Origin: an uncultured Gammaproteobacteria bacterium
GTDB lineage: Bacteria; Patescibacteriota; Patescibacteriia; UBA9934; GWF2-40-263
DNA length: 44,810 bases
Assembly: GCA_964573855.1 (NCBI GenBank)
Contig: CAZNKO010000002.1
Span: 1 to 44,810 of the forward strand
Reading direction: 5' to 3'
Positions 1 through 33,776 of this stretch are shown here, in pieces. The notes beneath the pieces were generated by a model. The model was given only the letters and a program-made list of their open reading frames with translations, searched no databases and was not told the DNA's origin. The stretch's first letter is position 1. Each line of letters starts with the position of its first letter. The position numbers and the translations under genes are program-made.

Positions 1-1005
1 CGACTCTACAAGCTCCTAACGGAATTTGGTGGCAGAAGTTAGATATTCCCCTTGAGGATTATCGTTCGAAGTTTGAATCCTTGGTGCGCGAGCAGGGGAT
101 CTGGCCGGAGAATTTTAACGAAAATGCAAACAATTCTTCCGGGGAATACCTCTGGGATGTGACCGATGTCCGCGAAAGCTATCAATCCTTCGACCACGCC
201 CGCGATCTTTTTTATTGCTTCATGTGTTTTCATGAGGCAGAGCGACTCGCGTTTTGCGGCGGTTCCCTCGTTTGCAACGACATGATCGGCTCCGTCGTTA
301 ACAGTCGATCTTCAAATTGCAGGTATTGTTATGCCATGGTCGGTTGCCAGAACATGGAATACTCCATGAATTGTTTTAACTGTGAAAATTGTTTTGGCTG
401 TATTGGTCTTCAGAACAAAAAGTTTCATATTTTTAATGTCGCGTATCCAGAGGATGAATATTGGAAGATGGTAGATGAATTGAAATGCGCCATGCTGGAG
501 CGTGGGGAATATGGGGAATCGTTCCCGACCCGTTTTTCCGCCTCTTATTTTTATGAATCAGGAGCGGTCGCGCTTTTCGGGTGCGGAAAGGAGGACGCCG
601 AACAGTTGGGCATTGTTGAGTATGATCCGAACATGAATGGGGCTTCTGGGTACATGGAGGTCGCGAAAGACGTCAAGCGAACGTCCGATGTTCCAGACGC
701 CATAGACGACATGTCCGTGGATGAGTGGGCAGGGGTGCCGATTTTTGATGCAGAAAAAAATAGACAATATTCCTATCTGAAGCCGGAACTTGAGTTTTAT
801 CATCAAAAGCGGATTGCTGCCCCGAACAAGCATTTTATTTACCCGGATTTATGAGCTGACACAGCAGATGAACTCTGCAATTTTTGTTGCAGAAAAATGT
901 TCAAAATGTTCAAAGGCCATTCGGGTTGGAAAATGCTTCGGATATCCGGAACGGACGATCTACTGCCGCCCGTGTTATTTGCAATATCTCGAGACACACA
1001 ATTAA
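1..1005 (+). pseudogene. Cys-rich ~575-aa paralog family, copy 1. The 5' end lies outside the window and the frame is broken by a 1-nt shift near 836-845.
   Basis: Frame 3 is open from nt 3 (..LDIPLEDYRSKFESLVREQGIWPENFN..). It is colinear with the C-terminal half of the full-length paralogs (MEYSMNCFNCENCFGCIGLQNKKFHIFN, KCAMLERGEYGE). It stops after ..NKHFIYPDL (TGA 852-854). The family C-terminus (CSKCSK..YCRPCYLQYLE) continues in the next frame (ORF 790..1005). Confidence 0.6.
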
Positions 1006-1013
1006 TTCTCCAT

Positions 1014-1040
1014 TCTCTAATTCGCGCGAATAGGAGAATA
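1014..1040 (+). promoter_or_regulatory. Copy 1 of 6 of a conserved upstream motif (TTCTCTA-TTCGCGCGAATAGGAGAATA), containing the 14-bp perfect palindrome TATTCGCGCGAATA (1019-1032)
   Basis: Direct comparison with 5152, 28441, 28843, 29149 and 29615. It lies 9 nt upstream of the ATG at 1049. Confidence 0.6.
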
Positions 1041-1048
1041 AGGAAATT

Positions 1049-3412: not shown

Positions 3413-5146
3413 ATGTCCAAAACTCCGAACTACGATGCAAAAATCAAAGCCATCCTCGACGCCACGCGGCCGGGGGAGCGGACGTGCGCGCTCACCGGTC
3501 AGAAATGGGAACTTACGGCCGGGGAGCTCGAATGGTGCTGGCGATTTCTCGTTCCTCCTTCAACGATCCATCCGTTCGTCCGGATGAAAATACTTTTTGC
3601 TTATAATTCGGCCCTTTCACTCTGGCGCAAGCCGCATGCGATCACGGGCGAACCTATCCTTTCTTATATTCATCCAGACAACCAAGTAAAGGTGGTAACA
3701 GATGCAGAGTGGATGAGTCTCGATCAATCTTCTCAAGGGCGGTCGGTGGATGTGAGCCAGCCGTTTTTTGATCAGTTGTATCAGCGTTACCTTGACACCA
3801 GCTTTCGCGCGCTCGCGACCCCCGGGGATTCCGTGAATACGATCGGATTTGGAATGCACAAGTGTCTCGATAGTTTCATGATTTTTGCTTCTTTGGATAT
3901 CGAACGTTCCTCATACGTGGAGGCCTCGACCTCTGTCAGGGATTCGGTTGATGTGACGAATTCCCTTGGTGGTATCGCGGAGAGTTCCAGTATTAATCGT
4001 TGTCGTTCTCTCTATAACTGTCATGTTGCGTTTGAGTGCCATGACTGTCTCAATTCCTGGTTTTTGTTTGATTGTCGAAATTGCGAGTACTGTTTCGGCG
4101 CGACGAATCAGAGGAACAAAAAGTACCTTTGGTTCAATGAGCAACTGACGAAAGAAGAATGGGAGCGGCGGCGAGAGGCCGTCGGCCTTTCGTCCTATGC
4201 GATTTTTGAACGCGAACGCAAACGTTTTTTCGATCTGGTTGCTGGATCCGTCTGGCCGGAAACGTTTAATATCGCCGCGGGCGCATCCACTGGGGAATAT
4301 CTCGAGGAAACCGTCCGTGTCCTGGAAGGATACCAATTGCAGAAAGTTACGGACTGCTTTCGTGTGTGGTTCGCGGTCGGCAGTTCAGATTGTGCCTATC
4401 AGACCGGTTCCGGATTCGGGTCGGAAATTTGGCAGACGAGCGGGGCCGCCTATTCCCAAAACGTAAAGTTCTCACACAATCTCACCAGATGCGAAGACGT
4501 TGAATACTGTGTGGCGTGCATGAACTGCTCCCATTGTTTTGGTTGCGTGAATTTGAATCGGAAACAGTATTGCATTTTGAACAAGCAGTATACGGAACAG
4601 GATTATTGGCGGACGTTGGACGATCTTAAATGCGTCATGCTGGAGCGCGGGGAATACGGTAAATCCGTTCCCGGTAAGATGAGCATTGTTGGTATGCCGT
4701 TTTCCGCCGCCGCACTACTGCTAGGAATCTCCAAAGAGGAGATTGAATTATTTGGCGGTGAAATCTATGACGCGAAACGCGGTATGTCGTATATGCCGGC
4801 CGAAGTCGACCCTGGTCACCGGTTAACGCCCGAGGCTCTCCCGGACCGTCTTGAGGACGCGACGGGGCTTGTGAATCGGGCGGTCTGGGATCCCGCGGCT
4901 GGCCGTTCGTATCCGATCATGCCGCGCGATTTTGATTTTGCGGAGCGTCATCATCTTCCCCTCCCGCGAAAGCATTTCCTCTCCCGATTGCAAGAGCTGA
5001 ATCTTCTTTCCAATGTTCCCGAGACGATAGATAGGGCGTGTGCTTCCTGCGGCAAGGGGATCAAAGTTTACCGGAATAACACGTTTTCCACGCGCCGGGT
5101 CTTGTGTGAGGCATGTTATCTCGCGTATCTTGAATCGCGCGGTTGA
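3413..5146 (+). CDS. Cys-rich repeat protein of unknown function, paralog copy 3 (577 aa)
   Basis: Full-length homolog of 1049..2776, with an identical block NKKYLWFNEQLTKEEWERRR, VEYCVACMNCSHCFGCVNLNRKQYCILNKQYT and a C-terminal CASCG..CEACYLAYLE. It starts 6 nt after the PIN-like stop and has no copy of the upstream motif. Confidence 0.85.
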   Translation: MSKTPNYDAKIKAILDATRPGERTCALTGQKWELTAGELEWCWRFLVPPSTIHPFVRMKILFAYNSALSLWRKPHAITGEPILSYIHPDNQVKVVTDAEWMSLDQSSQGRSVDVSQPFFDQLYQRYLDTSFRALATPGDSVNTIGFGMHKCLDSFMIFASLDIERSSYVEASTSVRDSVDVTNSLGGIAESSSINRCRSLYNCHVAFECHDCLNSWFLFDCRNCEYCFGATNQRNKKYLWFNEQLTKEEWERRREAVGLSSYAIFERERKRFFDLVAGSVWPETFNIAAGASTGEYLEETVRVLEGYQLQKVTDCFRVWFAVGSSDCAYQTGSGFGSEIWQTSGAAYSQNVKFSHNLTRCEDVEYCVACMNCSHCFGCVNLNRKQYCILNKQYTEQDYWRTLDDLKCVMLERGEYGKSVPGKMSIVGMPFSAAALLLGISKEEIELFGGEIYDAKRGMSYMPAEVDPGHRLTPEALPDRLEDATGLVNRAVWDPAAGRSYPIMPRDFDFAERHHLPLPRKHFLSRLQELNLLSNVPETIDRACASCGKGIKVYRNNTFSTRRVLCEACYLAYLESRG

Positions 5147-5151
5147 TCTCC

Positions 5152-5179
5152 ATCTCTAATTCGCGCGAATGGTAGAATA
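5152..5179 (+). promoter_or_regulatory. Upstream motif copy 2 of 6 (ATCTCTAATTCGCGCGAATGGTAGAATA). Palindrome ATTCGCGCGAAT at 5159-5170; TGgTAGAAT resembles an extended -10.
   Basis: Direct sequence comparison. It ends 8 nt before the ATG at 5187. Confidence 0.6.
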
Positions 5180-5186
5180 AGAAGAT

Positions 5187-6923
5187 ATGAGCAAAACCTC
5201 GAACTACGACGCAAAAGTAAAAGCCATCCTCGACGCCACGCACCCGGGGGAGCGGGTTTGCGCGCTCACGGGAGAGAAGTGGATGATGGATGAGCGCGAA
5301 ATTGGTTGGTACAAAAAATTTAACGTCCCGCCGTCGAAGTACAGTCCCTTTACGCGCATTAAAGCAATGGCCGCGTATTTTATTTTGTTTGACATCTGGT
5401 ACAACAAACATGCGGAAACAGGAAAACCGATCATCAGCAATATCCATCCCGCGACCGGTATCCGCGTCCTTCCGGATGAAGACTGGTTTGGACGAGACTT
5501 TTCTGACCTTTCTCTTGCTTTGGATCTCCAGAAACCATTTTTTCAACAATTGTACCGTTTAAGCCGGATGGTTCCCCGCGCGGCCGGATACAATCCGGTG
5601 AAGCCGGAACGTTCCATTGCGTTCATTTCTTTCGGAGACGAAGATAGTTATTTTGTTCTCGCGTGTCGTTCCAAGCGCAGCGTCTACTGCATCAACGGGT
5701 TCGATGTTGAGGATAGCGCGGAGTTGGATGCCGTAAATTCTGCCCGACGTTCTTATAACGTTATTTATTCCGATCGTGTCTATCAATGTAAATTCATCCG
5801 AGAGTCGCGGGACGTTCAATTCTCTTCCTTCTTGTTCGATTGTCGCAATTGCGAATATTGCTTTGGCGCCACGAACCAACGCAATAAAAAATATCTCTGG
5901 TTCAACGAGCAACTCTCAAGAGAGGAATGGGAACGTCGCGTTGCTGCCGTCGACCTTGCTTCGTTTGCCGTCCGTCAGGAGTATGAAAGGAAATTCCATG
6001 AACTGGTGAGCAAGGCTATTTGGCCTGAAAATTTTAACATCAACAGTCCCGGGTGTACGGGGGAGTATTTGACGGATTGCGTGGACGTGAAGGAGAGCTA
6101 CAATGCTCGGGGGGCGAGAGACGCGGAATACATTTGCTATTCCATTGGCCCATCGCACGATCTGTATTATGCAAGCGGAAATGCGGACGCCTCCGATTGT
6201 TATTACGGGGTCGGTTTTCACTATACGAGTCAAAGCAAATTTTCCCTTTCGATTACCCAACGGTGCCTCGGGGTGGAGTATTGCGAGAGCTGTTATGATT
6301 GTTCGTATTGTTTTGGACGTGTTGGATTACAAAGGAAGTCGTTTTGCATTCTGAACAAGCAATACACGGAGGCGGAGTATTGGAAGACCGTCGATGCCTT
6401 GAAGTGTGCGATGCTCGATCGGGGGGAATATGGTGAAGCGGCGCCAGCCTATTTTTCAACGCAACATTGGCCAGGATCAGGAGCCACGACGATCTATGAG
6501 GCAACGGAAGAGGACGCGCGAAGATTGCGTGCGGCGCAATTTCAGGCGTCGGACGACGACGCGGAAGGTCCACCAGTAGACCAAACAAAAATTCGCAACG
6601 TGGAAAGCATGCCAGACCGTGTGGCAAATGAGAGCATTGACAGTCTTGTTAGGGTTCCGTTTTTGGACCCAAAGATGGGTCGGCGGTTTTCGTATCTTAA
6701 ACCAGAGCTTGAGCTGTATCAGAAATTGGGGGTTGCCCCGCTGAGGCGGCATCCGACGGGATGCATCCATGATCTCTATCGCGAAATGAATCGGCCGATT
6801 TTTCACGAAACGACATGCGCGAAGTGCGGGAAGGGGATTCGGGTCGCGGATAATCAGGCGTATCCGAAGCGAATCATCTATTGTCAGCTCTGCTATTTGA
6901 GGTATCTTGAAGAGCGTGGATGA
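5187..6923 (+). CDS. Cys-rich repeat protein of unknown function, paralog copy 4 (578 aa)
   Basis: Full-length homolog of copies 2 and 3 (FDCRNCEYCFGATNQRNKKYLWFNEQLSREEWERR, VEYCESCYDCSYCFGRVGLQRKSFCILNKQYT, CAKCG..CQLCYLRYLE). Confidence 0.85.
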   Translation: MSKTSNYDAKVKAILDATHPGERVCALTGEKWMMDEREIGWYKKFNVPPSKYSPFTRIKAMAAYFILFDIWYNKHAETGKPIISNIHPATGIRVLPDEDWFGRDFSDLSLALDLQKPFFQQLYRLSRMVPRAAGYNPVKPERSIAFISFGDEDSYFVLACRSKRSVYCINGFDVEDSAELDAVNSARRSYNVIYSDRVYQCKFIRESRDVQFSSFLFDCRNCEYCFGATNQRNKKYLWFNEQLSREEWERRVAAVDLASFAVRQEYERKFHELVSKAIWPENFNINSPGCTGEYLTDCVDVKESYNARGARDAEYICYSIGPSHDLYYASGNADASDCYYGVGFHYTSQSKFSLSITQRCLGVEYCESCYDCSYCFGRVGLQRKSFCILNKQYTEAEYWKTVDALKCAMLDRGEYGEAAPAYFSTQHWPGSGATTIYEATEEDARRLRAAQFQASDDDAEGPPVDQTKIRNVESMPDRVANESIDSLVRVPFLDPKMGRRFSYLKPELELYQKLGVAPLRRHPTGCIHDLYREMNRPIFHETTCAKCGKGIRVADNQAYPKRIIYCQLCYLRYLEERG

Positions 6924-7060: not shown

Positions 7061-7756
7061 ATGCAAGAACATATTATATTCAAAACATCTGATGGTATCG
7101 AAATCGTTGGTGATTATTACGCTTCGGGCCCTTCGACAAGCTCAGGGCCTAACGGCAAGTTTGCAATTCTTCTCCACATGATGCCGGCAACGAAGGAGAG
7201 CTGGAAGCCGTTTGCCGCGAAACTTGTCGCAAAGGGTTACGATGTGCTCGCGATCGACGAGCGCGGGCATGGGGAGAGCACTATGGGTGGCACATTGGAT
7301 TACAAAAAATTTGGCGAGGCTGAACAGCAGGCAAAAATTTTAGACGTTGAGGCTGCATTTGAGTTTCTAAAAGGGAACCCTTCGACAAGCTCAGGGCCAA
7401 GGGGGGCGACGGAGAAGAACACGGTTTTGGTCGGCGCGTCGATTGGCGCGAATCTCACGATCCAATTTTTGACCATGCATCCAGGCGTGGCCGTCGGCGT
7501 TGCGCTTTCGCCTGGATTGAATTACCGCGGGGTGACGACCGATGATAAAATCACGAAGCTCCATTCGGGACAGAAAATCGTTTTGGTCGCGAGCGACGAC
7601 GATGATCGTGATTCGGCCGCGAGTTGCCGCGAGCTTCATAGATTAAATGAGGTGCAGACGGTTTTGATTGAAAAGAATGGTCTCGGGCACGGCACGACCA
7701 TGTTCGAGCGGGATCCGAAATTGATGGATGAGATGATTAACTATCTGTCATTCTGA
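7061..7756 (+). CDS. Alpha/beta hydrolase fold protein (231 aa) carrying two in-frame PSTSSG repeat insertions
   Basis: Nucleophile elbow GASIG and a C-terminal GLGHG. The overall pattern matches the dienelactone-hydrolase/alpha-beta hydrolase type. Confidence 0.7.
   Translation: MQEHIIFKTSDGIEIVGDYYASGPSTSSGPNGKFAILLHMMPATKESWKPFAAKLVAKGYDVLAIDERGHGESTMGGTLDYKKFGEAEQQAKILDVEAAFEFLKGNPSTSSGPRGATEKNTVLVGASIGANLTIQFLTMHPGVAVGVALSPGLNYRGVTTDDKITKLHSGQKIVLVASDDDDRDSAASCRELHRLNEVQTVLIEKNGLGHGTTMFERDPKLMDEMINYLSF
7129..7147 (+). repeat. Short type-A element CCCTTCGACAAGCTCAGGG, in-frame in the CDS (PSTSSG)
   Basis: Exact string repeated at 7378. Near-identical copies at 10522 and 20543. Confidence 0.8.
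7378..7396 (+). repeat. Short type-A element CCCTTCGACAAGCTCAGGG, in-frame in the CDS (PSTSSG)
   Basis: Exact copy of 7129..7147 within the same gene. Confidence 0.8.
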
Positions 7757-7805
7757 GCCGCAGGCGAAGAATCTTATGAGATCCTTCGCTGACGCTCAGG
7801 ATGAC
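7747..7805. repeat. Type-D palindromic element (GTCATTCTGAGC..GCGAAGAATCT tatg AGATCCTTCGC..GCTCAGGATGAC)
   Basis: An inverted repeat. The same element family is seen, in the opposite orientation, at 14098, 18791 and 33719. It contains the stop codon of the hydrolase gene. Confidence 0.7.
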
Positions 7806-7813
7806 AAAAGCCT

Positions 7814-8290
7814 ATGTCTTGGAAAGAAGCCGTTCTCGTCTTTGGGGCCGAATATCTGGTGTATGTCCAAGCGCTTGCAACGCTGGTTTTTGCTTGGCTT
7901 CAGCGCCGGATCATTCGCGCGACGTTTTTTGCCTACGCGATCGTGAGCGGAGTCCTCGCTTTTGCCCTGTCTCGTCTCGCCGGGCTTCTCTACAACAATC
8001 CTCGGCCGTTTGTCGTTGAAGGGTTTACGCCGCCGATTCCGCACGCGCCGGATAACGGATTCCCATCGGATCACACGCTTCTTGCCGCTTGGCTCGCAGC
8101 GCTTGTGATGCCGTATGACCGGCGGCTCGGAACGATCCTCGCGATCGGCGCGCTTTTGGTCGGATTCTTTCGAGTCGCGGCCGGCGTCCATCACATGGTT
8201 GATATCATCGGATCCATCGTGATTGTGACTGTCTCGGCTCTTTCTACCTTCTACTTTCTACCTTCTACCCGCCGTCTATGGCAGAAATGA
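7814..8290 (+). CDS. PAP2-superfamily phosphatase (membrane protein, BcrC/undecaprenyl-diphosphatase-like)
   Basis: PAP2 motifs NNPRPF, PSDHT and RVAAGVHHMVD, plus hydrophobic segments. Confidence 0.75.
   Translation: MSWKEAVLVFGAEYLVYVQALATLVFAWLQRRIIRATFFAYAIVSGVLAFALSRLAGLLYNNPRPFVVEGFTPPIPHAPDNGFPSDHTLLAAWLAALVMPYDRRLGTILAIGALLVGFFRVAAGVHHMVDIIGSIVIVTVSALSTFYFLPSTRRLWQK
8242..8269 (+). repeat. Heptanucleotide tandem array (TTCTACC/TTCTACT) x4
   Basis: ttctacc ttctact ttctacc ttctacc. It lies in the 3' tail of the PAP2 gene, immediately upstream of the HD gene start at 8278. Confidence 0.8.
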
Positions 8291-9630
8291 TCGAAGTTCG
8301 CGATCCGATCCATCGGCGCATTCCCTTTGACGAATTTGAGCGACGGGTGATTGATCACCCGTTTTTTCAGCGCTTGCGTTTCATCTCCCAGCTTTCTTTC
8401 TTGATGTCCTACGTCTACCCGGGCGGCGTGCATGACCGATTTTCGCACGGTCTCGGAGCGATGCATGTCGCTGGACGCTTGTTCGGGCGACTTCTCGCGA
8501 GCTCACCGCTTCTTTCCTCCAGATTTTCTCCGGAAGAAATTGAAGCCCTCCGCCGCCGCATGCGGCTTGCGGGGTTGCTCCACGACATAGGCCATGGCCC
8601 ATTCTCCCACGCGTCCGAGACGATTTTTCCGAAATTTCGCGATCTTCCGATGGATTGGTCGTGGTGGAACCCTTCGACTCCGGCCGGTTATCCCCTGAGC
8701 AACGTCGAAGGGCTAACCGGCCTCCGCTCAGGGAATAATAGACAGTCTAAGCATGAAGATTACAGCGTGCTTTTGATCCAAACGCTCGCGAAGGAAGGCG
8801 TGCTTGCCGAAGATCTTGCCCAAGACGTGGCGTCGCTTATTCACGGAGATGTCGTGCCGTCCGCGACATTTACGGGGTTGGAAAGACAAGCGCCGACTCT
8901 CCAAAAAATTTTGAAATCCCTCGTCTCGGGCGAAGTAGATTGCGACCGGATGGATTATCTTCTGCGTGACAGCTATTACTGCGGCGTCGCCTATGGCACG
9001 TTCGATCTCGATTGGCTCATTTCCAGTCTCGGCCTTGCAGAACAAGACGGGAAGTTTCTTCTCACGCTTTCGGAAAACGGCGTGCGTGCCTTTGAGGACA
9101 CGCTCCTCGCGCGCTACCACATGATCGATCAGGTTTATTTCCACAAAACCAAAGCCGGCTTTACGCATTACCTTGAGGAGGCGATTCGGACAAAGGAAGC
9201 GGATCTCACCATTCCGACCGATCCCTACGCCTATGCAGGCCTTCGGGACGGGCAGGTGATCGAGAAACTTTTCGCGGCGGCGAAAGACGAAAAGAATTAC
9301 TGGTCGCACCATTTGATGCGGCGGATTCCGGCGAAGCGGATTTTGCGGTTCCAGACCGCGAAGGCGGAAGATCGAGAGACATTAAAAAAGCTCGAAGAGA
9401 TTTGTCAAAAGAACAATATCCGTTTTTTTACCCACGCCGCGTCAAAGGAATTAACATTTCTCGGGGAAGGATCAAGCGCAGACAGCATTCAGGTTGCCAA
9501 GAAAACCATCGACGGTGTTCGCTATGTGCCGGTGTTTCAGTACTCGGATCTTCTTCAAAAATATCACGAGAAACTTCAGTTCACGGATTTTTTTGTGCTC
9601 CGCGAGGACGCAGAAAAATTTGAAAACTAG
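8278..9630 (+). CDS. HD-domain phosphohydrolase (COG1078/SAMHD1-like dNTP triphosphohydrolase family)
   Basis: HD motifs FSHGLG and LLHDIGHGPFSH, plus GEVDCDRMDYLLRDSYYCGV. It overlaps the preceding gene by 13 nt. Confidence 0.8.
   Translation: MAEMIEVRDPIHRRIPFDEFERRVIDHPFFQRLRFISQLSFLMSYVYPGGVHDRFSHGLGAMHVAGRLFGRLLASSPLLSSRFSPEEIEALRRRMRLAGLLHDIGHGPFSHASETIFPKFRDLPMDWSWWNPSTPAGYPLSNVEGLTGLRSGNNRQSKHEDYSVLLIQTLAKEGVLAEDLAQDVASLIHGDVVPSATFTGLERQAPTLQKILKSLVSGEVDCDRMDYLLRDSYYCGVAYGTFDLDWLISSLGLAEQDGKFLLTLSENGVRAFEDTLLARYHMIDQVYFHKTKAGFTHYLEEAIRTKEADLTIPTDPYAYAGLRDGQVIEKLFAAAKDEKNYWSHHLMRRIPAKRILRFQTAKAEDRETLKKLEEICQKNNIRFFTHAASKELTFLGEGSSADSIQVAKKTIDGVRYVPVFQYSDLLQKYHEKLQFTDFFVLREDAEKFEN
8670..8733 (+). 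repeat. Long (64-bp) type-A palindromic element inserted in-frame in the HD gene (PSTPAGYPLSNVEGLTGLRSG)
   Basis: It has the same termini as the short copies (CCCTTCGAC...GCTCAGGG). Internal inverted pairs: CCCTTCGAC/GTCGAAGGG, CCGGTTA/TAACCGG, CCCTGAGC/GCTCAGGG. Confidence 0.75.
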
Positions 9631-10063: not shown

Positions 10064-11335
10064 ATGCCAAAAGCCAAAAGCCAGAAGCCAAAAGCTAGCC
10101 CTGAGCGAAGTCAAAGGGTTCTTGTCGGCATGTCCGGCGGCGTGGATTCGTCCGTGTCCGCGGCATTGTTGTTGGAGGTTGGGTATGAGGTGATTGGCGC
10201 GTTCATGAAAAATTGGTCCGGACAGAAATGTGCGGATGGGTCGTTTAAAGAATGTGGGTGGCGCGACGAGCGGCGGGATGCCATGCGCGTGGCATCCACA
10301 CTCGGGATTCCGTTTGTGACGCTCGATTTTGAGGAACAGTATCGGCGCGATGTGGTTGAGAACATGTTCCGTGAGTTTGAAGCGGGCCGCACGCCGAATC
10401 CGGACGTGATGTGCAACAAGTTCATCAAATTTGATCGATTCGTGAAGGCGGCAGATGGGCTTGGATGTCAATTTGTCGCGACAGGACATTATGCCCGCAT
10501 ATTCCCCGAGCCTGTCGAGGGGCCTTCGACAAGCTCAGGCAATAATTTTCGTATCCTCATGGGCTCTGACCCAAACAAAGACCAAACCTATTTCCTCTGG
10601 GCCATGCCGCCCGCCGTTTTGTCGCGCGTGTTGTTTCCGGTTGGCGGCATGATAAAGGCGGATGTGCGAAAGAAAGCGCGTGAGCTTGAGCTTTCCACTG
10701 CTGACAAAAAAGACAGCACCGGCATTTGTTTTGTTGGGGAAGTGGACAGGCGTGAATTTTTGCAGGGGGGCATTCCGGAAGATCCAGGCGGGATTGTGAC
10801 GACCGAGGGAGAGATTGTCGGCCAGCATTCTGGGGTCGCGTTTTATACGATCGGCCAGCGCCACGGGCTCAACGTCGGTGGCGGCACGCCCTATTATGTT
10901 GTGGAGAAAAAACCAGCGACAAAACAGTTGGTCGTCTCAAGCAATTTTCATCCAGCCCTGTTCAAAAAAGAGTTAACGGCGATCCAATGCAACTGGTTCC
11001 GCGATCTTTCGCGTCCCCCTTTTCAAGGGGGACTACAGGGGGTTACCGGTGCATCGGCAACCCCTCCTCACCTCCCCTTGGAAAGGGGAGGAAGTACATT
11101 CCGCTGTCAGGCGCGGATTCGTTATCGCCAGCCTGTTGCGCCATGTACCGTGACCATTCTCCCCCTTTTTCCGCCAGAGGCGGATCCCGCTCTGCGGGAC
11201 AAGGGGGAGCCAGAGGGGGTTGCCGGTGATCGTGTCCACGTCCATTTTGACGGCCCCCAGCGCGCCGTCACCCCCGGCCAGTCCATTGTGTTTTATCAAG
11301 ACGACGAAATGCTGGGCGGGGGTGTGATAGAATGA
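10064..11335 (+). CDS. mnmA: tRNA-specific 2-thiouridylase MnmA, carrying three in-frame repeat insertions
   Basis: PP-loop motif VGMSGGVDSS, a central DQTYFL block and a C-terminal AVTPGQSIVFYQDDEMLGGGVIE. Confidence 0.9.
   Translation: MPKAKSQKPKASPERSQRVLVGMSGGVDSSVSAALLLEVGYEVIGAFMKNWSGQKCADGSFKECGWRDERRDAMRVASTLGIPFVTLDFEEQYRRDVVENMFREFEAGRTPNPDVMCNKFIKFDRFVKAADGLGCQFVATGHYARIFPEPVEGPSTSSGNNFRILMGSDPNKDQTYFLWAMPPAVLSRVLFPVGGMIKADVRKKARELELSTADKKDSTGICFVGEVDRREFLQGGIPEDPGGIVTTEGEIVGQHSGVAFYTIGQRHGLNVGGGTPYYVVEKKPATKQLVVSSNFHPALFKKELTAIQCNWFRDLSRPPFQGGLQGVTGASATPPHLPLERGGSTFRCQARIRYRQPVAPCTVTILPLFPPEADPALRDKGEPEGVAGDRVHVHFDGPQRAVTPGQSIVFYQDDEMLGGGVIE
10066..10100 (+). repeat. Heptanucleotide tandem array (GCCAAAA-like) x5 at the 5' end of mnmA
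   Basis: gccaaaa gccaaaa gccagaa gccaaaa gctagcc, encoding the N-terminal tail PKAKSQKPKAS. Confidence 0.75.
10522..10540 (+). repeat. Short type-A element (GCCTTCGACAAGCTCAGGC), in-frame in mnmA (PSTSSG)
   Basis: Matches the copies at 7129 and 7378 except at the terminal bases. Confidence 0.75.
11014..11091 (+). repeat. Palindromic repeat element (type C) in-frame in mnmA (..PPFQGGLQGVTGASATPPHLPLERGG..)
   Basis: Three consecutive hairpins: TCCCCCTT ttc AAGGGGGA; GGGGTTaCCG gtgcat CGGcAACCCC; CCTCCCCTT gga AAGGGGAGG. It shares the AGGGGGTTNCCG module with 11157 and 24946. Confidence 0.7.
11157..11226 (+). repeat. Palindromic repeat element (type B) in-frame in mnmA (ILPLFPPEADPALRDKGEPEGVAG)
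   Basis: TTCTCCCCCTTTTTCCGCCAGAGGCGGA..CTCTG..CAAGGGGGAG..AGAGGGGGTTGCCGG. An intergenic copy lies at 24946..25014. Confidence 0.75.
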
Positions 11336-13590: not shown

Positions 13591-13665
13591 GTCGCAGATG
13601 AAACCATGAAAAAGCCTTGCGGTCAATGGAGAAAGAAAAAACCGGCAGATCTTGCGACCAACCGG

Positions 13666-14037
13666 TTATCGTGCGTCGAGTGTGTCGGCGAAGCCGTCTT
13701 TGTCCGGGTCGAAACGCTTGACGAGGACCTTGACTCTGGAGTCCTTCCGGCGCCGGAAGCGATTGAGACATCCACGGATTGCGATCCCGAGTTGTTCGGC
13801 GAACACTTGTCGCTTCTCGTCCGTCCGATCCGGCTTTTCGAACAGGCCCTCGACGATGAAGAACGCTGGGGGGTAAGGCCTGGTCGGGACGCTTGGATCA
13901 TGCGGGAAGAAGACGTCCACCTCCTCCCCCTTGAACTCCCAGAACTCTTTTGTTACGGATTCGATCACTCCTGCGAGCACGGCCCGCCATTTCCGGCTGG
14001 CCGTCGGAGAGATGTTGTATCCGATAATGAGCGGCAT
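13666..14037 (-). CDS. Hypothetical protein (123 aa). The Met-Pro N-terminus followed by a beta-alpha-beta-like pattern hints at a tautomerase-like fold (speculative).
   Basis: ATG 14037 is preceded by GGAGGTG. No confident family was recognised. Confidence 0.45.
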   Translation of the reverse strand: MPLIIGYNISPTASRKWRAVLAGVIESVTKEFWEFKGEEVDVFFPHDPSVPTRPYPPAFFIVEGLFEKPDRTDEKRQVFAEQLGIAIRGCLNRFRRRKDSRVKVLVKRFDPDKDGFADTLDAR

Positions 14038-14097
14038 CTGTCTCACCTCCTCTCTTTGGAAATGGTGAGAGAGACAGCTCACCATAATGAGGATCTA

Positions 14098-14140
14098 TTG
14101 TCATCCTTGAAGATTCTTCACCTTCGGTTCAGAATGACAG
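14098..14140. repeat. Shortened type-D palindromic element (GTCATCCTTGAAGATTCTTCACCTTCGGTTCAGAATGAC)
   Basis: Its termini GTCATCCT...TCAGAATGAC are shared with 18791 and 33719. Confidence 0.6.
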
Positions 14141-14144
14141 ACGT

Positions 14145-14597
14145 ATGCTCGTGATCGCGCATAATATTCGATCTCTCCATAATGTCGGGGCCATGTTTCG
14201 GAGCGCCGATGCGTTTGGGGTTGAGAAATTGTATTTGACAGGATACACGCCTATTCCGCCGCGCCGCGAGATTGCGAAGACCGCGCTTGGGTCGGAAATG
14301 CGGGTCGCGTGGGAAAAAGCAGAAGATGTTCTCGAGTTGTTCCATCGGCTAAAAAAAGAAGGGAAAAAAGTCCTGGCCCTCGAGATCAGTGAGAACGCAT
14401 TGTCCGTCTCGGACGCCCGAGATCGTTTCAATCCAGCCGAGATCGTCTTGGTGCTCGGAAACGAGGTTGTGGGCCTCGAACCCGAGGTTCTTGCGGCGTG
14501 CGACGCGACCGTGATGATCCCCATACCAGGGCAAAAACGCTCGCTCAATGTCTCGGTTGCCTCCGGGATTGCGATGTTTGCATTGAGATCAAAATAG
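14145..14597 (+). CDS. SpoU/TrmH-family RNA 2'-O-methyltransferase
   Basis: NIRSLHNVGAMFRSADAFG, LVLGNEVVGL and IPIPGQKRSLNVSVASGIAMF are the three SPOUT motifs. Confidence 0.85.
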   Translation: MLVIAHNIRSLHNVGAMFRSADAFGVEKLYLTGYTPIPPRREIAKTALGSEMRVAWEKAEDVLELFHRLKKEGKKVLALEISENALSVSDARDRFNPAEIVLVLGNEVVGLEPEVLAACDATVMIPIPGQKRSLNVSVASGIAMFALRSK

Positions 14598-18766: not shown

Positions 18767-18790
18767 TCGTTGCCAAAGAAGCGATTTTTA

Positions 18791-18860
18791 TGTCATCCTG
18801 ACCCCGCCGACGGCGGGGGAAGGATCCCTAGAGATTCTTCACTTCGTTCAGAATGACACA
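18791..18860. repeat. Type-D palindromic element directly upstream of alaS
   Basis: GTCATCCTGA..CCGCCgaCGGCGG..GAAGGATCcctagaGATTCTTC..TCAGAATGAC. Confidence 0.7.
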
Positions 18861-18863: not shown

Positions 18864-20717
18864 ATGACTTCCAAAGAATTACGGGCACAATTCCTCAAGT
18901 TTTTTGCGAGCCGCGGACACACCGTGATCCCGTCCGCTTCGCTTATTCCGGAAAATGATCCGACCGTGCTTTTTACGACCGCGGGTATGCATCCGCTCGT
19001 GCCGTTTTTGCTTGGAGAAAAACATCCAGGCGGAAAGCGGCTCACGAACGTGCAGAAGTGCATACGCACCGGCGATATTGACGAGGTCGGGGACGATACG
19101 CACCTCACGTTTTTTGAAATGCTCGGCAATTGGTCGCTCGGGGATTACTTCAAGAAGGAAGCGATCGCATGGAGCTTTGAATTCCTGACGGACAAGAAAT
19201 GGCTGGGCGTGGATCCGTCGCATCTCGCGATCTCCGTCTTTGCCGGCGATGAAAGCGCGCCACGGGATGAGGAATCCGTTGCCCTTTGGCTCGGCCAGGG
19301 AATCCCGAAAGACCGGATCGCCTATCTCGGCAAGGAAGATAACTGGTGGCCGGCTGGCGGAAAACATCCAGGGCCGCAAGGGCCAGACACGGAGATTTTT
19401 TATTGGACCGGAGCCATAAAGCCACCAAAGAAATTTGATCCGACCGATAAGTCTTGGGTAGAAATTTGGAACAACGTGTTCATGCAGTTCAATCGTCTGC
19501 CAGATGGCACGCTCGCGCCATTGAAGCAAAAGAATGTTGATACTGGCATGGGCCTTGAGCGCACGGTGGCCGTATTGCAAGGGAAGAAGAGTGTTTTTGA
19601 AACAGACGGATTCGTACCGATCATTCAAGCGATTGAGAAAGAAACAAAAAAATTGTATAGGAGCAATGAACGTCTCATGCGTGTCGTCGCGGATCATGTG
19701 CGCTCGGCTGTGATGTTGGTCTCTGATGGTGTCGTACCATCCAACAAGGACCAAGGGTACGTTTTGCGTAAATTGATTCGTCGGTCTGTTCGATATCTCA
19801 AACAGTTGGAAGCAATGGAAGCTATTGGAGCCGTCGCGGTCGCCGCCGCCGATACGTTAAAAGATGCGTATCCTGTACTTGTTGAGCGTGGAGATAATAT
19901 CGTGAAGACGATTAAGGATGAAGAAGCCAAGTTTGCAAAGGGACTCAAAGAAGTAGAAAGACTTGTACGTATCGGGAAGATTGAACTGATTTCCGAGGGA
20001 GCGGAACCAAAGATTTATAATCGAGTAGATTCAAAGAAGGCCTTTGATATTTATCAGACGTACGGTTTCCCACTTGAGTTGATTCAAGAAGAGCTTGCAA
20101 AAAAAGCGTTGGTCGTTGACGAGAAAGAATTCAAGGAAGAATTCAACAAACATTTCAAAAAGCACCAAGACCTGTCGCGCGCGGGCGCGGGACAAAAATT
20201 TGCTGGCGGGCTCGCGGATCATGCGGAGGAAACCGTGCGTCTCCACACCGCCACCCATCTTCTCCATCAAGCCCTTCGCTCTGTGCTTGGGTCCCATGTG
20301 TTCCAGAAAGGATCGAACATCACGCGCGAACGCTTGCGCTTTGATTTTTCCCATCCAGAAAAAATGACCCAGGATCAAATTAAAGCGGTTGAAAAATTGG
20401 TGAACGAACAAATCAAAAAAGATCTCCCCGTGCATTATGAGATTCTCAACATTGAGGAAGCAAAGAGGCGCGGGGCGATTGGGCTCTTCGAGGACAAGTA
20501 CGCCCAGCTCGGCGGCAAGATCAAAGTGTATTTCGTGGGCGACCCTTCGACAGGCTCAGGGCAGGCGATTGATGGTTATTTCAGCAAGGAAGTTTGCGGC
20601 GGGCCGCACGTGAAGCGTTCTAGCGAGATTGGCACCCTCAAGATCACAAAAGAAGAGGCCGTCTCCTCTGGCGTCCGCCGGATCAAGGCAGTCGTGAATG
20701 GTCAAAACGTGCCTTAA
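18864..20717 (+). CDS. alaS: Alanine--tRNA ligase, short form (617 aa, ends after the editing domain)
   Basis: MTSKELRAQFLKFFASRGH..FTTAGM..FEMLGNWSLGDYFK, editing-domain HTATHLLH and CGGPHV. ATG 18864 gives the canonical N-terminus. Confidence 0.9.
   Translation: MTSKELRAQFLKFFASRGHTVIPSASLIPENDPTVLFTTAGMHPLVPFLLGEKHPGGKRLTNVQKCIRTGDIDEVGDDTHLTFFEMLGNWSLGDYFKKEAIAWSFEFLTDKKWLGVDPSHLAISVFAGDESAPRDEESVALWLGQGIPKDRIAYLGKEDNWWPAGGKHPGPQGPDTEIFYWTGAIKPPKKFDPTDKSWVEIWNNVFMQFNRLPDGTLAPLKQKNVDTGMGLERTVAVLQGKKSVFETDGFVPIIQAIEKETKKLYRSNERLMRVVADHVRSAVMLVSDGVVPSNKDQGYVLRKLIRRSVRYLKQLEAMEAIGAVAVAAADTLKDAYPVLVERGDNIVKTIKDEEAKFAKGLKEVERLVRIGKIELISEGAEPKIYNRVDSKKAFDIYQTYGFPLELIQEELAKKALVVDEKEFKEEFNKHFKKHQDLSRAGAGQKFAGGLADHAEETVRLHTATHLLHQALRSVLGSHVFQKGSNITRERLRFDFSHPEKMTQDQIKAVEKLVNEQIKKDLPVHYEILNIEEAKRRGAIGLFEDKYAQLGGKIKVYFVGDPSTGSGQAIDGYFSKEVCGGPHVKRSSEIGTLKITKEEAVSSGVRRIKAVVNGQNVP
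20543..20561 (+). repeat. Short type-A element (CCCTTCGACAGGCTCAGGG), in-frame in alaS (PSTGSG)
   Basis: Differs by one nucleotide from the copies at 7129 and 7378, with the same orientation and reading frame. Confidence 0.75.
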
Positions 20718-24945: not shown

Positions 24946-25014
24946 TTCTCCCCCTTTTTCCGCCAGAGGCGGACCAGCCTCTGGCTGGCAAGGGGGAGTT
25001 AGAGGGGGTTACCG
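24946..25014. repeat. Intergenic copy of the type-B palindromic element
   Basis: TTCTCCCCCTTTTTCCGCCAGAGGCGGACCAGCCTCTGGCTGGCAAGGGGGAGTTAGAGGGGGTTACCG. Compare 11157..11226 inside mnmA. Confidence 0.75.
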
Positions 25015-28428: not shown

Positions 28429-28440
28429 TTTATAAAGGTA

Positions 28441-28468
28441 TTCTCTAATTCGCGCGAATGGTAGAATA
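28441..28468 (+). promoter_or_regulatory. Upstream motif copy 3 of 6 (TTCTCTAATTCGCGCGAATGGTAGAATA)
   Basis: Matches 5153..5179 over 27 nt (TCTCTAATTCGCGCGAATGGTAGAATA). Palindrome at 28448-28459. It ends 20 nt before the ATG at 28489. Confidence 0.6.
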
Positions 28469-28488
28469 GTTACGGATGCGCATTTATT

Positions 28489-28836: not shown

Positions 28837-28842
28837 GGCATA

Positions 28843-28870
28843 TTCTCTAATTCGCGCGAATGGTGGAATA
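28843..28870 (+). promoter_or_regulatory. Upstream motif copy 4 of 6 (TTCTCTAATTCGCGCGAATGGTGGAATA)
   Basis: Palindrome at 28850-28861. It ends 30 nt before the ATG at 28901. Confidence 0.6.
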
Positions 28871-28900
28871 GTTGGCCGGGTTGTAGTAGTCTTGAAGGAT

Positions 28901-29170
28901 ATGAAAGAGAAGGAAATGGAGCGGGTCCTCAAGGCCCTGGCCAATCGACGGCGTCTCGCCATTGTGAGATATTTGAAACGCACCAGAGAGGCGACGGTGG
29001 GGGATATCGCGGACGAGATTAGGCTTTCGTTCAAAGCGACGTCGAAACATCTCGGCGTCCTTTATGCCGCAGATATCGTGGATCGGGAACAGCGAAGCTT
29101 GCAGATGTGGTATCGTCTCGTCCCCAATCTTCATCCCGTTGCAAAACATATCTCTAATTCGCTCGAATAG
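28901..29170 (+). CDS. ArsR/SmtB-family winged-helix transcriptional regulator (89 aa, no Cys)
   Basis: LKALANRRRLAIVRYLKRTREATVGDIADEIRLSFKATSKHLGVLYAADIVDREQRSLQMWYRL is the canonical ArsR HTH_5 pattern. ATG 28901 is preceded by GAAGGA. The ORF-track start at 28814 overlaps the upstream gene and the motif. Confidence 0.8.
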   Translation: MKEKEMERVLKALANRRRLAIVRYLKRTREATVGDIADEIRLSFKATSKHLGVLYAADIVDREQRSLQMWYRLVPNLHPVAKHISNSLE

Positions 29171-29177
29171 GCGAATA
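29149..29177 (+). promoter_or_regulatory. Upstream motif copy 5 of 6 (TATCTCTAATTCGCTCGAATAGGCGAATA). It overlaps the last codons of the ArsR-family gene.
   Basis: The palindrome has one mismatch (ATTCGCTCGAAT). It ends 13 nt before the ATG at 29191. Confidence 0.55.
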
Positions 29178-29190
29178 GTTCGAGTGTCCT

Positions 29191-29583: not shown

Positions 29584-29614
29584 CCATTGATTTTTGTATC
29601 CACACTCTTCTACC

Positions 29615-29642: not shown

Positions 29643-29644
29643 GT

Positions 29645-33775: not shown

Positions 33776-33776
33776 T
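33719..33776. repeat. Type-D palindromic element forming the 3' end of the GT4 gene and the start region of the next gene
   Basis: GTCATCCTGAACGCAGTGAAGGATCCCCATGAAGATTCTTCGCTACGCTCAGAATGAT. Confidence 0.7.

What the first reader, a model, noticed from the sequence alone, without database searches (positions are those of the whole stretch)
7129..8733. A short palindromic element inserted in-frame, always in the same frame, into several conserved genes
CCCTTCGACA[A/G]GCTCAGGG occurs at 7129 and 7378 (alpha/beta hydrolase), 10522 (mnmA) and 20543 (alaS).
- Each copy is in the same orientation and the same reading frame, adding P-S-T-S/G-S-G to the protein.
- A 64-bp version at 8670-8733 in the HD phosphohydrolase has the same termini (CCCTTCGAC ... 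GCTCAGGG).
- It also has three interleaved inverted-repeat pairs (order a-b-c-a'-b'-c'). It is translated as PSTPAGYPLSNVEGLTGLRSG.
- The short copies therefore look like internally deleted derivatives or footprints of the long element.
The known precedent for selfish repeats tolerated inside ORFs is the Rickettsia palindromic elements. Here the strict frame bias toward a Ser/Thr/Gly linker suggests purifying selection on insertions.
Basis: partly seen in the sequence, partly recalled or inferred. Interest (0 to 1): 0.65.

Follow-up and report, generated by a model that had tools for sequence, protein, structure and literature searches.

The report
Tiny hairpin repeats translated inside genes
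A 19-base hairpin-forming DNA repeat found in many bacterial phyla has landed, in frame, in surface loops of four conserved enzymes of this small-genome (Candidatus Uhrbacteria) bacterium, where it is read as a short Pro-Ser-Thr-Ser-Ser-Gly loop; this kind of event is already known from Rickettsia and other bacteria.

Summary
CCCTTCGACA[A/G]GCTCAGGG is exact at 7129, 7378 and 20543. A 2-mismatch copy at 10522 is the right arm of a 37-nt inverted doublet. The 64-nt element at 8670-8733 has the same termini. Every forward copy is read P-S-T-S/G-S-G. Alignments with 60-150 orthologues per protein show all five sites are insertions of 7-19 residues in loops or beta-turns.

The element is not lineage-specific. 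The exact 19-mer occurs in at least 120 species-representative genomes from about 17 phyla, in viral contigs and in plasmids, mostly between genes. It is a REP-type stem-loop: a 4-bp covarying stem, tandem G·A pairs and a conserved 5-nt loop. It occurs as singlets, inverted doublets and nested composites. The closest described relatives are the CGTC/TGTC-tagged REPs (which include Rickettsia RPE-4/6) and intragenic REPs (Di Nocera 2013).

The frame bias extends beyond this window: 12 of 13 forward genic copies are PSTSSG and 5 of 5 reverse copies are PExVEG. Evidence for turnover:
- AlaRS carries the element at the same turn in scattered lineages, with nucleotide identity far above the synonymous background.
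- A 78-nt in-frame indel of a sister palindrome family separates strains 99.4% identical.

The 64-nt composite is a recurrent family. No transposase was found. Verdict: a new member of a known kind.

The parts
7129..7149 (+). Single hairpin unit H (CCCTTCGACAAGCTCAGGG plus CC) inside the alpha/beta hydrolase gene (7061-7756). It is read as G-PSTSSG-P, residues 23-29.
   Evidence: Exact match and frame. Here 118 of 120 orthologues are 6-8 residues shorter. The site lies in a beta-hairpin turn with a pLDDT dip to 71.
7378..7398 (+). Second single unit H in the same hydrolase gene, 21 nt identical to the first. It is read as N-PSTSSG-P, residues 106-112.
   Evidence: family D7. Here 117 of 120 orthologues are 7-8 residues shorter. 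The site is a helix-to-strand loop with a pLDDT dip.
8670..8733 (+). 64-nt nested composite in the HD phosphohydrolase gene (8278-9630). The outer unit H is split at its centre (8670-8678 and 8726-8733). Between the halves is a hairpin stem b/b' (8682-8690 and 8714-8722) with an inverted unit at its tip (8693-8712). Translation: PSTPAGYPLSNVEGLTGLRSG.
   Evidence: The loop is 18-19 residues shorter in 97 of 120 orthologues, and the syntenic orthologue in L121 lacks the element. A homologous composite lies in the opposite orientation in mnmA of L122/L123.
10504..10540 (+). 37-nt inverted doublet (rc-type arm 10504-10522, H-type arm 10522-10540) in mnmA (10064-11335). It is read as PEPVEG-PSTSSG.
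   Evidence: There is an 8-9 residue gap in solved MnmA structures. The empty site in Uhrbacteria orthologues is GHYARIEDGRILAGSD.
20543..20566 (+). Single unit H (A-to-G variant) with the common CAGGC flank, in alaS (18864-20717). It is read as D-PSTGSG-QA.
   Evidence: The modal orthologue lacks 12 residues here, and the L165-type orthologue differs by exactly 21 nt. The same unit sits at the same turn in L161 and L162.
7061..7756 (+). Host gene: alpha/beta hydrolase (Hydrolase_4).
   Evidence: orthologues.
8278..9630 (+). Host gene: HD-domain phosphohydrolase (HD and HD_assoc_2 domains).
   Evidence: orthologues.
10064..11335 (+). Host gene: tRNA 2-thiouridylase MnmA. It also carries two inserts of a different, G-rich palindrome family.
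18864..20717 (+). Host gene: alanyl-tRNA synthetase. The likely true start is the ATG at 18864.

Best explanation
The repeat is a REP-type (repetitive palindromic) stem-loop module of about 19-24 nt. On the GAGC strand its anatomy is a 4-bp stem of variable, covarying sequence, then tandem G·A/A·G pairs, one G-C pair and a conserved 5-nt loop (NNNCT-GA-G-CYTGT-C-GA-AGNNN). It belongs to a very widespread superfamily of short bacterial hairpin repeats. These occur as singlets, as inverted doublets (REPIN-like) and as nested composites, and they are normally extragenic.

In this gene-dense Candidatus Uhrbacteria genome, copies have entered coding DNA. The copies seen today are those that selection tolerated. 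They lie in surface loops or beta-turns, add a multiple of three bases, and sit in the phase that reads Pro...Gly: PSTSSG forward and PExVEG reverse. They are simply translated as short flexible loops.

The inserts turn over quickly by new insertion into, or next to, older inserts and by in-frame deletion. That is why the same loops carry different palindrome families, or none, in related genomes.

Shown: the anatomy, the insertion status, the frame bias, the patchy distribution, nucleotide conservation above the synonymous background, and an in-frame indel polymorphism in a sister family.

Inferred: that the copies are translated; that selection rather than mechanism sets the frame; and the way copies spread. 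The enzyme is unknown. By analogy with REP/REPIN elements I favour mobilisation in trans through a single-stranded hairpin intermediate.
For: - Repeat far beyond chance: 0.00 matches expected in shuffles of the window.
- Insertions relative to 60-150 orthologues at all five sites. The hydrolase model places both inserts in low-confidence loops of an otherwise confident fold (pLDDT 92).
- Broad occurrence: the exact 19-mer is in at least 120 genomes of about 17 phyla, against roughly 9 chance matches expected in 596 Gb. These copies share flanks (CGAACGG, TGAGCGG, TGACA) and partner arms. 99 of 137 copies are not in long ORFs.
- Stem covariation in copies not selected by the query: 81-89% Watson-Crick at 4 positions, against 31-76% after shuffling partners, with CG, GC, TA and AT pairs all used. 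The window holds 9 such hairpins against 0.4 expected.
- Genic, in-frame copies elsewhere: RlmM, PepA of a Saccharibacterium, an FAD oxidoreductase and an FGE-sulfatase (all PSTSSG); MetH and HsdR (PELVEG); RecG (PFDRLR).
- Frame counts: 12 of 13 forward copies in one frame (p = 1.7e-5) and 5 of 5 reverse.
- AlaRS carries the unit at the same turn in genomes of 53, 43 and 37% GC. There 4-5 of 6 codons are identical, against 25-30% for conserved residues elsewhere in the gene. Each bearer's nearest relatives lack it.
- L124 and L127 are 99.4-100% identical except for a 78-nt in-frame palindromic indel in the same HD loop.
- The closest relatives carry other palindrome families at the very same hydrolase and HD sites.
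- Literature: intragenic REPs encode 7-9 residues as singles and 20-30 as dimers, and RPE-4/6 are CGTC REPs (PMC3733652).
Against: - No transposase or other recurrent neighbouring gene was found. A tblastn with RAYT and IS200 sequences written from memory found nothing in about 1.3 Mb. The only recurrent neighbours were phage head genes of related viral contigs.
- No clear target-site duplication is present, only ambiguous GG(G/C) repeats at the junctions.
- An 18-24 nt unit is shorter than any element shown experimentally to transpose.
- The presence/absence polymorphism between near-identical strains was seen for the G-rich sister family, not for H itself.
- Only one 44.8-kb contig of the source genome is available, so there is no genome-wide census.
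- Translation of the inserts is assumed from intact frames, not observed.
- 19 of 19 identity across phyla is more conservation than a purely selfish, decaying repeat would be expected to keep.
Confidence: 0.65

Rival explanations
1. No dedicated transposase is involved. The hairpins spread by host replication or repair: template switching or microhomology-primed copying from another copy, with loss by slippage across the hairpin. Insertion occurs preferentially where the target has G-rich turn codons (GGN). This would also set the reading phase, because the terminal GGG of the unit becomes a Gly codon in both preferred frames.
For: - Short GG(G/C) direct repeats bracket the inserts. The alaS insert equals an L165-type empty site (GGC|CAA GCT) plus exactly 21 nt ending in GGG. 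The hydrolase sites show GGGCC...GGGCC and GGG...GGG.
- In both favoured frames, forward and reverse, the 3' GGG is read as Gly.
- Different palindrome families occupy identical sites in close relatives.
- The 78-nt indel can be split into 27-nt and 51-nt hairpin-bounded pieces.
- No transposase was found, and the CGTC REPs also lack one (PMC3733652).
Against: - Gly precedes the unit in only about 4 of 10 verified genic copies. The preceding residues are His, Ser, Asp, Asn or Gly.
- The microhomologies are 2-5 nt and could be chance in G-rich sequence.
- This mechanism does not explain why the loop sequence is identical across phyla.
Confidence: 0.2
2. The hairpin is a functional cis-element kept by selection on the nucleic acid itself. 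It would be bound by a conserved host factor or act in RNA, for example in processing, stability or pausing of translation. Genic copies would then persist because they do something, not merely because they are tolerated.
For: - The 12-nt core is invariant while the stem covaries.
- The 19-mer is identical across about 17 phyla.
- Synonymous positions of the unit are conserved in AlaRS of genomes with 37-53% GC.
- An H-type inverted doublet forms part of a transcribed small RNA family of Aggregatibacter, RF02901.
- REPs are thought to act as RNA elements downstream of genes (PMC3733652).
Against: - Most orthologues of all four proteins lack the element, and close relatives carry unrelated palindromes at the same sites.
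- The singlets do not fold better than shuffled sequence.
- In the window, the strand with the stabilising G·A pairs is the antisense strand.
- Almost no G-T pairs occur in the stems, so nothing indicates RNA-level pairing on either strand.
- There is no Rfam match at gathering threshold.
Confidence: 0.12
3. The PSTSSG segments are protein-level features: a convergently selected or ancestral Ser/Thr/Gly linker. They are not insertions of a DNA element.
For: PSTGSG occurs at the same AlaRS turn in several divergent orthologues. The peptide is a plausible flexible loop.
Against: - Copies in unrelated genes are identical at every synonymous position.
- The same 19-mer is mostly extragenic in other phyla.
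- It is read in other frames in RecG, MetH and HsdR.
- Codon identity inside the unit is 4-5 of 6, against 25-30% outside it.
- Nearest AlaRS relatives lack it.
Confidence: 0.02
4. The copies are an assembly or sequencing artefact, for example chimeric joins at a repeated oligonucleotide.
For: The window is a single metagenomic contig, and repeats can mislead assemblers.
Against: - All host genes stay full-length and colinear with their orthologues on both sides of every copy.
- The same element occurs in isolate genomes (Microbacterium, Sphingopyxis, Porphyrobacter, Microlunatus), in complete plasmids and in independent assemblies of related organisms.
Confidence: 0.01

Closest known systems
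Rickettsia palindromic elements (RPE; Ogata et al. 2000 and 2002, from my own knowledge; RPE-4 and RPE-6 reclassified as CGTC-tagged REPs in PMC3733652)
   Same: Short palindromic repeats inserted in frame into conserved genes and translated as extra surface segments. Singles encode about 8 residues, and several copies can sit in one gene. tRNA-modification, aminoacyl-tRNA synthetase and repair genes are hit in both cases.
   Different: The sequence family differs: RPE peptides are VIPAKAGI, WIPWSNHGMT and the like. RPE-1 is 100-150 bp. RPEs were described in Rickettsia, whereas this 19-mer occurs across many phyla and is mostly extragenic elsewhere.
CGTC/TGTC- and GTAG-tagged REPs, including intragenic REPs (Di Nocera et al. 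2013, PMC3733652)
   Same: 20-40 nt stem-loops with 4-5 nt loops, occurring as singles and head-to-head dimers, mostly extragenic but with documented in-frame intragenic copies. No dedicated transposase is known for the CGTC class. Many copies of H in other phyla carry a TGTCA tag next to CCCTGAGC. The window also holds classical TGTC-tagged copies (7744-7810 and others).
   Different: The stem of H is 4 bp plus G·A pairs, not 8-9 bp starting with AT. The window's H copies have no CGTC/TGTC or GTAG tag. H peptides are absent from that paper's list of intragenic REPs.
REPIN/RAYT systems (Bertels and Rainey 2011, PMC3116915)
   Same: Inverted doublets of a REP form a longer hairpin, as in the mnmA doublet and the usual pan-bacterial arrangement (arm, spacer, arm).
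   Different: No RAYT gene was found. REPIN sequences are lineage-specific and inherited vertically, whereas the H core is the same across phyla and occurs on plasmids and viral contigs.
Rfam RF02901 AaHKsRNA41 (Aggregatibacter small RNA)
   Same: Its consensus contains an H-type inverted doublet, CUGAgCUUGcCGAAG ... UUCGgCAAGcUCAg. Such a doublet is therefore transcribed in at least one organism.
   Different: The match scores only 30 bits against a gathering score of 97, and the rest of the 187-nt model is unrelated. The window gives no match at all.
Bacterial MITEs found in frame in genes (reviewed in PMC10969869 and PMC2229807)
   Same: Non-autonomous repeats that can sit in coding regions without destroying them.
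   Different: MITEs are 50-500 bp with terminal inverted repeats matching an IS element and with target-site duplications. H units are 19-24 nt and have neither.

Membership tests
REP (repetitive extragenic palindrome), general sense | Short (20-40 nt) imperfect palindrome able to form a stem-loop, repeated many times | tested here: met
   19-37 nt units; stem covariation; 7 units in the window; at least 120 genomes.
REP (repetitive extragenic palindrome), general sense | Predominantly extragenic location | tested here: inconclusive
   Met across phyla: 99 of 137 copies are not in long ORFs. Not met in this window, where all 5 sites are genic. With about 90% coding density (my estimate from the ORF list) and n = 5, this is not significant.
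GTAG-tagged REP / RAYT-associated REP | Conserved GTAG tetranucleotide at one end | tested here: not met
   Flanks of all copies were read; none carries a GTAG/CTAC tag.
GTAG-tagged REP / RAYT-associated REP | A RAYT (Y1 HUH transposase) gene in the genome, often flanked by REPs | tested here: inconclusive
   No tblastn hit in the window or in about 1.3 Mb of loci. The queries were written from memory, and only fragments of genomes were available.
CGTC/TGTC-tagged REP (Di Nocera 2013) | CGTC (or TGTC/CCTC) tag at one end | tested here: inconclusive
   Absent from the window's H copies. Present as TGTCA next to CCCTGAGC in many copies elsewhere, e.g. L008, L023, L060, L070, L089, L100, L111.
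CGTC/TGTC-tagged REP (Di Nocera 2013) | 8-9 bp stem beginning with A-T pairs; 4-5 nt loop; CCA tail | tested here: not met
   The stem is 4 Watson-Crick pairs (mostly C-G), then G·A/A·G, then one G-C pair. Complementarity stops after 4 positions. The 5-nt loop does fit.
Rickettsia palindromic elements | In-frame insertion into conserved genes, absent from orthologues | tested here: met
Rickettsia palindromic elements | Sequence similarity to an RPE consensus | tested here: not met
   The encoded peptides of RPE-4/6 (CGTC-1/4) listed are unrelated to PSTSSG or PELVEG. The nucleotide consensus of RPE-1 to RPE-8 was not available for comparison.
REPIN | Two REPs in inverted orientation separated by a short spacer, forming one long hairpin | tested here: met
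   The mnmA doublet has zero spacer. The usual arrangement in other phyla is arm, 10-25 nt, arm.
MITE | 50-500 bp, terminal inverted repeats related to an IS element, target-site duplication | tested here: not met
   Units are 19-64 nt. There is no consistent duplication at the junctions and no IS in the window.
Rfam RF02901 AaHKsRNA41 | Score at or above the gathering threshold (97 bits) | tested here: not met
   30 bits for a full doublet in L032; no match in the window.

The most novel reading that the evidence does not exclude
The unit is an undescribed, near-universal mobile hairpin. Its 12-nt core would be held identical across about 17 phyla, plasmids and phage-like contigs because a conserved factor recognises it. 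It would re-enter the very same protein turns again and again (AlaRS in at least 3 scattered lineages; MnmA, HD and hydrolase loops in sister genomes). That would make it a general, ongoing source of loop insertions in bacterial proteins, working without a linked transposase.
Probability: 0.2. Interest if true: 0.8.

Novelty: new member of a known kind. Interest (0 to 1): 0.5.

Why it matters
It extends 'protein-coding palindromes' from Rickettsia and a few REP-rich Proteobacteria to the Candidate Phyla Radiation. Those genomes are so gene-dense that repeats have little non-coding space to land in.

It also shows that a handful of loops in housekeeping enzymes act as recurrent landing pads, with rapid in-frame turnover. 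In practice such segments inflate apparent protein divergence. They create spurious 'lineage-specific inserts' in alignments and structure predictions, and they generate the familiar junk peptides (PFDKLRANG, LRQAQGER, LSLSKGE; recalled from my own knowledge) when extragenic copies are mis-called as ORFs.

The unexplained part is why a 19-nt hairpin stays identical across most bacterial phyla with no known enzyme. That question could be addressed with existing genome collections.

Tried and rejected
- Looking up the window's MnmA to obtain more of the source genome found nothing. The window is the whole contig.
- A metagenome scan with the HD protein found 34 related loci but no near-identical strain of the window organism. 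Presence/absence of H itself could therefore not be tested directly.
- Full-text searches for the DNA motif and for its six-frame peptides found no relevant paper. A search for CPR-specific literature on palindromic insertions also found nothing.
- Rfam at gathering threshold gave no match in the window or in 12 loci. At permissive threshold there was only the sub-threshold RF02901 hit, and the paper behind that family does not mention repeats.
- tblastn for a RAYT or IS200 transposase gave no hit (the queries were written from memory).
- Clustering of about 5,000 ORFs next to 240 H-bearing loci to find an associated enzyme yielded only phage portal, protease and capsid genes from one group of related viral contigs.
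- Hammerhead, group II intron domain V, attC, CRISPR repeat, tRNA or rRNA fragment and sequencing adaptor were considered from memory and dropped, because the conserved positions do not fit.
- An ORF-length screen of pan-bacterial copies was unreliable in high-GC genomes. For example, the Microbacterium 'genic' copy lies upstream of gatB. Only Pfam-verified cases were counted.
- Replication-strand bias: GC skew is positive across the whole window, and all the host genes lie on the same strand. Orientation relative to replication, to transcription and to frame therefore cannot be separated.


Full report
**1. The observation**

The 19-mer CCCTTCGACA[A/G]GCTCAGGG is exact at 7129, 7378 and 20543 on the + strand. 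Dinucleotide-preserving shuffles give 0.00 expected matches. The copy at 10522 is a 17-of-19 variant. It is directly preceded by its own inverted copy at 10504-10522. The mnmA insert is therefore a 37-nt hairpin doublet. It folds at -20.7 kcal/mol on the + strand and -28.4 kcal/mol on the - strand, z = -5.6.

All copies lie in + strand genes with the first C at codon position 3, so they read CCT TCG ACA AGC TCA GGG = PSTSSG, or PSTGSG in alaS. The host genes are:
- a Hydrolase_4 alpha/beta hydrolase;
- an HD/HD_assoc_2 phosphohydrolase;
- MnmA;
- AlaRS.

MnmA homologues place the organism in Candidatus Uhrbacteria, within the Patescibacteria/CPR.

The 64-nt element at 8670-8733 has the stated termini and the three interleaved repeat pairs. 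Structurally it is one unit, H, split at its centre by a hairpin. The stem of that hairpin (b/b') carries an inverted H at its tip. This gives a fully nested fold as well as the alternative long-range a/a' and c/c' pairings.

**2. Are they insertions?**

Yes, at all five sites.

| Site | Modal loop length (residues) | Window (residues) | Orthologues compared |
|---|---|---|---|
| Hydrolase site 1 | 10 | 17 | 120 |
| Hydrolase site 2 | 9 | 17 | 120 |
| HD | 13-14 | 32 | 120 |
| MnmA | 14 | 27 | 60 |
| AlaRS | 17 | 29 | 151 sequences (150 orthologues plus the window) |

- Hydrolase: only one or two other proteins have long inserts at either site.
- HD: the syntenic orthologue in L121 reads WSWWKHKPEKRRAVHEDYS.
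- MnmA: solved structures show an 8-9 residue gap. The empty site in Uhrbacteria is the tight turn GHYARIEDGRILAGSD.
- AlaRS: an L165-type orthologue (GGC|CAA GCT ATT GAT) differs from the window by exactly 21 nt.

An AlphaFold model of the hydrolase has mean pLDDT 92.4. Confidence dips only at residues 21-30 (71) and 101-120 (77, 86). These are the two inserts, in a beta-hairpin turn and in a helix-to-strand loop.

**3. The same loops are hot spots**

The closest hydrolase relative (76% identity, L126) carries a different, G-rich palindrome at both of the same sites. The closest HD relatives carry other inserts in the same loop. In MnmA, 34 of 60 Uhrbacteria orthologues have some palindrome-derived peptide at the same turn, from at least four sequence families. 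These include H-type arrangements in P0042 and P0057.

**4. What the element is**

The exact 19-mer is not specific to this lineage. Roughly 9 chance matches would be expected in 596 Gb (my calculation, assuming equal base frequencies). The loci come from:
- Bacteroidota, Cyanobacteria and Alpha-, Beta- and Gammaproteobacteria;
- Actinomycetota, including isolates of Microbacterium, Microlunatus and Gordonia;
- Chloroflexota, Acidobacteriota, Nitrospirota, NC10 and Planctomycetota;
- Armatimonadota, Myxococcota, several CPR lineages and others.

It is also in at least 120 IMG/VR contigs and in plasmids of Moraxella, Sphingobium and Comamonas, where nothing is annotated under it.

The usual context is an inverted doublet such as ccgttcgGGCTGAGCCTGTCGAAGCCc, a spacer, then CCCTTCGACAAGCTCAGGGcgaacgg. 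Recurring flanks are CGAACGG, TGAGCGG, TGACA and ACCGA. Tandem arrays also occur.

I took every occurrence of the core GAGCYTGTCGA and set aside the copies that the query itself had selected. In the rest, the four flanking positions are complementary in 81-89% of copies. The figure is 31-76% when partners are shuffled. CG, GC, TA and AT pairs are all used, and complementarity stops after four positions.

The unit is therefore a small stem-loop: a 4-bp covarying stem, tandem G·A/A·G pairs, one G-C pair and a 5-nt loop. The window contains 9 hairpins of this general design against 0.4 expected.

The centre of the unit can carry an extra hairpin, as seen in L031, L121 and L127. The 64-nt composite of the window recurs about 80% identical, but reverse-complemented, in a different loop of mnmA in L122/L123. 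The composite is therefore a family and not a local accident. Its inner part, CCGGTTATC-CCCTGAGC..GAAGGG-CTAACCGG, corresponds to the full-length form common elsewhere, CCGTTCG-CCCTGAGC..GAAGGG-CGAACGG.

**5. Genic versus extragenic copies, and frame**

Across phyla, 99 of 137 copies are not inside long open frames. Pfam-verified genic copies do exist:
- PSTSSG frame: RlmM (AEPVEA...HPSTSSGRT), PepA of a Saccharibacterium, an FAD oxidoreductase and an FGE-sulfatase.
- PELVEG frame: MetH and HsdR.
- PFDRLR frame: RecG.

Adding the window and the Uhrbacteria loci, 12 of 13 forward genic copies use the PSTSSG phase (p = 1.7e-5 against one-third). All 5 reverse copies use the PExVEG phase. Both favoured phases start with Pro and end with Gly.

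About 370 kb of other Uhrbacteria loci contain few H copies. The window, with 7 units in 44.8 kb, is enriched.

**6. Evidence for turnover**

*AlaRS.* L161 (43% GC) and L162 (37% GC) carry CCT TCG ACx GGC TCA GGx at the same turn as the window. Within the unit 4-5 of 6 codons are identical. Only 25-30% of codons are identical for conserved four- and six-fold residues elsewhere in the gene (p about 0.01 per comparison). None of the H-bearing AlaRS is the nearest relative of another, and each has closer relatives that lack the insert. This fits repeated gain, frequent precise loss, or homogenisation. It does not fit an ancestral peptide.

*HD loop.* L124 and L127 are 99.4-100% identical over 2.7 kb. 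The exception is a 78-nt in-frame palindromic segment in the HD loop, from the G-rich family. The short allele keeps only the right arm, so it looks like a deletion derivative.

**7. Comparison with what is known**

Di Nocera et al. 2013 (PMC3733652) sorted prokaryotic REPs into GTAG- and CGTC-tagged superfamilies. They showed that R. conorii RPE-4 and RPE-6 are CGTC REPs. They listed intragenic REPs in many species, with singles encoding 7-9 residues and dimers 20-30, and many of them in repair and tRNA-related genes. They also noted that CGTC REPs lack a dedicated transposase.

H fits this kind of element, but its peptides are absent from that paper's list of intragenic REPs. The window copies have no GTAG or CGTC tag. 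The stem is 4 bp plus G·A pairs rather than 8-9 bp starting with A-T. Many copies elsewhere do carry TGTCA beside CCCTGAGC.

The window also holds classical TGTC-tagged dimers at gene ends.

Rfam has no family for H. The consensus of RF02901, an Aggregatibacter small RNA, contains an H-type doublet, but the match is far below threshold.

**8. How it most likely works**

*Shown:*
- a conserved hairpin module;
- insertion into loops;
- a strong phase bias;
- patchy distribution with nucleotide conservation;
- in-frame indel turnover in a sister family.

*Inferred:*
- copies arrive in coding DNA about as often as anywhere else, since these genomes are roughly 90% coding (my estimate from the ORF list);
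- only in-frame, stop-free, loop-compatible copies survive;
- these copies are translated.

The means of spread is unknown. No RAYT or IS200-like gene and no recurrent neighbouring gene was found. A single-stranded hairpin intermediate acted on in trans (REP-like) is my preferred reading. Transposase-free template switching with G-rich microhomology is the main rival. Selection on the nucleic acid itself cannot be excluded and would best explain the identity across phyla.

**9. Verdict**

It is a new member, in a new host lineage and with a new sequence family, of a known kind: intragenic REP/RPE-like palindromes. The most interesting residue is unexplained. A 19-nt hairpin stays identical across most bacterial phyla, on phage-like contigs and on plasmids, and repeatedly occupies the same protein turns.

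Noticed in passing
window 11018-11095 and 11157-11225 (both inside mnmA); 24946-25014 (intergenic): A second, G-rich palindrome family (TCTCCCCCTT...AAGGGGGAG...GGGGGT). In MnmA it is read as PFQGGLQGV...PPHLPLERGG and PLFPPEADPALRDKGEPEGV. Both segments are absent from solved MnmA structures and from most orthologues. The copy at 11157 is 84% identical to the intergenic one.
   Followed up: partly
window 7744-7810, 14110-14141, 18790-18860, 33756-33785: Classical TGTC-tagged REPs (TGTC-ATTCTGAGC-CGCAG-GCGAAGAAT), as singles and head-to-head dimers at gene ends. The copy at 7744 supplies the last residues and the TGA stop of the hydrolase. The copy at 33756 supplies the C-terminus and stop of a glycosyltransferase. 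The copy at 14110 lies in frame near the end of ORF 13606-14154.
   Followed up: partly
L124 917 versus L127 6397-6475: Two metagenomic contigs from different samples are 99.4-100% identical. They differ by a 78-nt in-frame palindromic segment in the same HD loop that holds the 64-nt element in the window. The shorter allele keeps only the right arm of the palindrome.
   Followed up: yes
window 1011-1043, 5150-5182, 28439-28471, 28841-28873, 29148-29180, 29613-29645: Six copies of a 30-33 nt motif, TATTCTCTAATTCGCGCGAATGGTAGAATA, with the palindrome ATTCGCGCGAAT followed by TAGAAT. At least four of the six (1011, 5150, 29148, 29613) end within about 10 nt of the start of the next listed ORF. 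It looks like a shared promoter or operator.
   Followed up: no
window 81-854 (partial), 1049-2776, 3413-5146, 5187-6923: A tandem array of paralogous genes for Cys-rich proteins of about 575 residues (repeated CxxC motifs). They have no Pfam match. A homologue sits in the same place upstream of the hydrolase in L127.
   Followed up: no
L032 3304-3474; Rfam RF02901: The Rfam small-RNA family AaHKsRNA41 of Aggregatibacter contains an H-type inverted doublet in its consensus. At least part of that 'sRNA' is therefore a copy of this widespread repeat. The source paper does not mention repeats.
   Followed up: partly
L220 4639-4699 and related viral loci L169, L183, L195, L204, L218, L225, L232: In a group of related phage or gene-transfer-agent-like head-gene clusters (portal, prohead protease, capsid, DUF2460), H copies lie close to the head genes; in L220 (4639-4699) they sit between the portal and protease genes.
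   Followed up: partly
L127 5402-5470 (between the hydrolase and PAP2 genes): An intergenic H unit split by a central hairpin and flanked by the inverted repeat GCCGTTGTT...AACAACGGC. It occupies the spacer that in the window holds a TGTC-type dimer instead.
   Followed up: no
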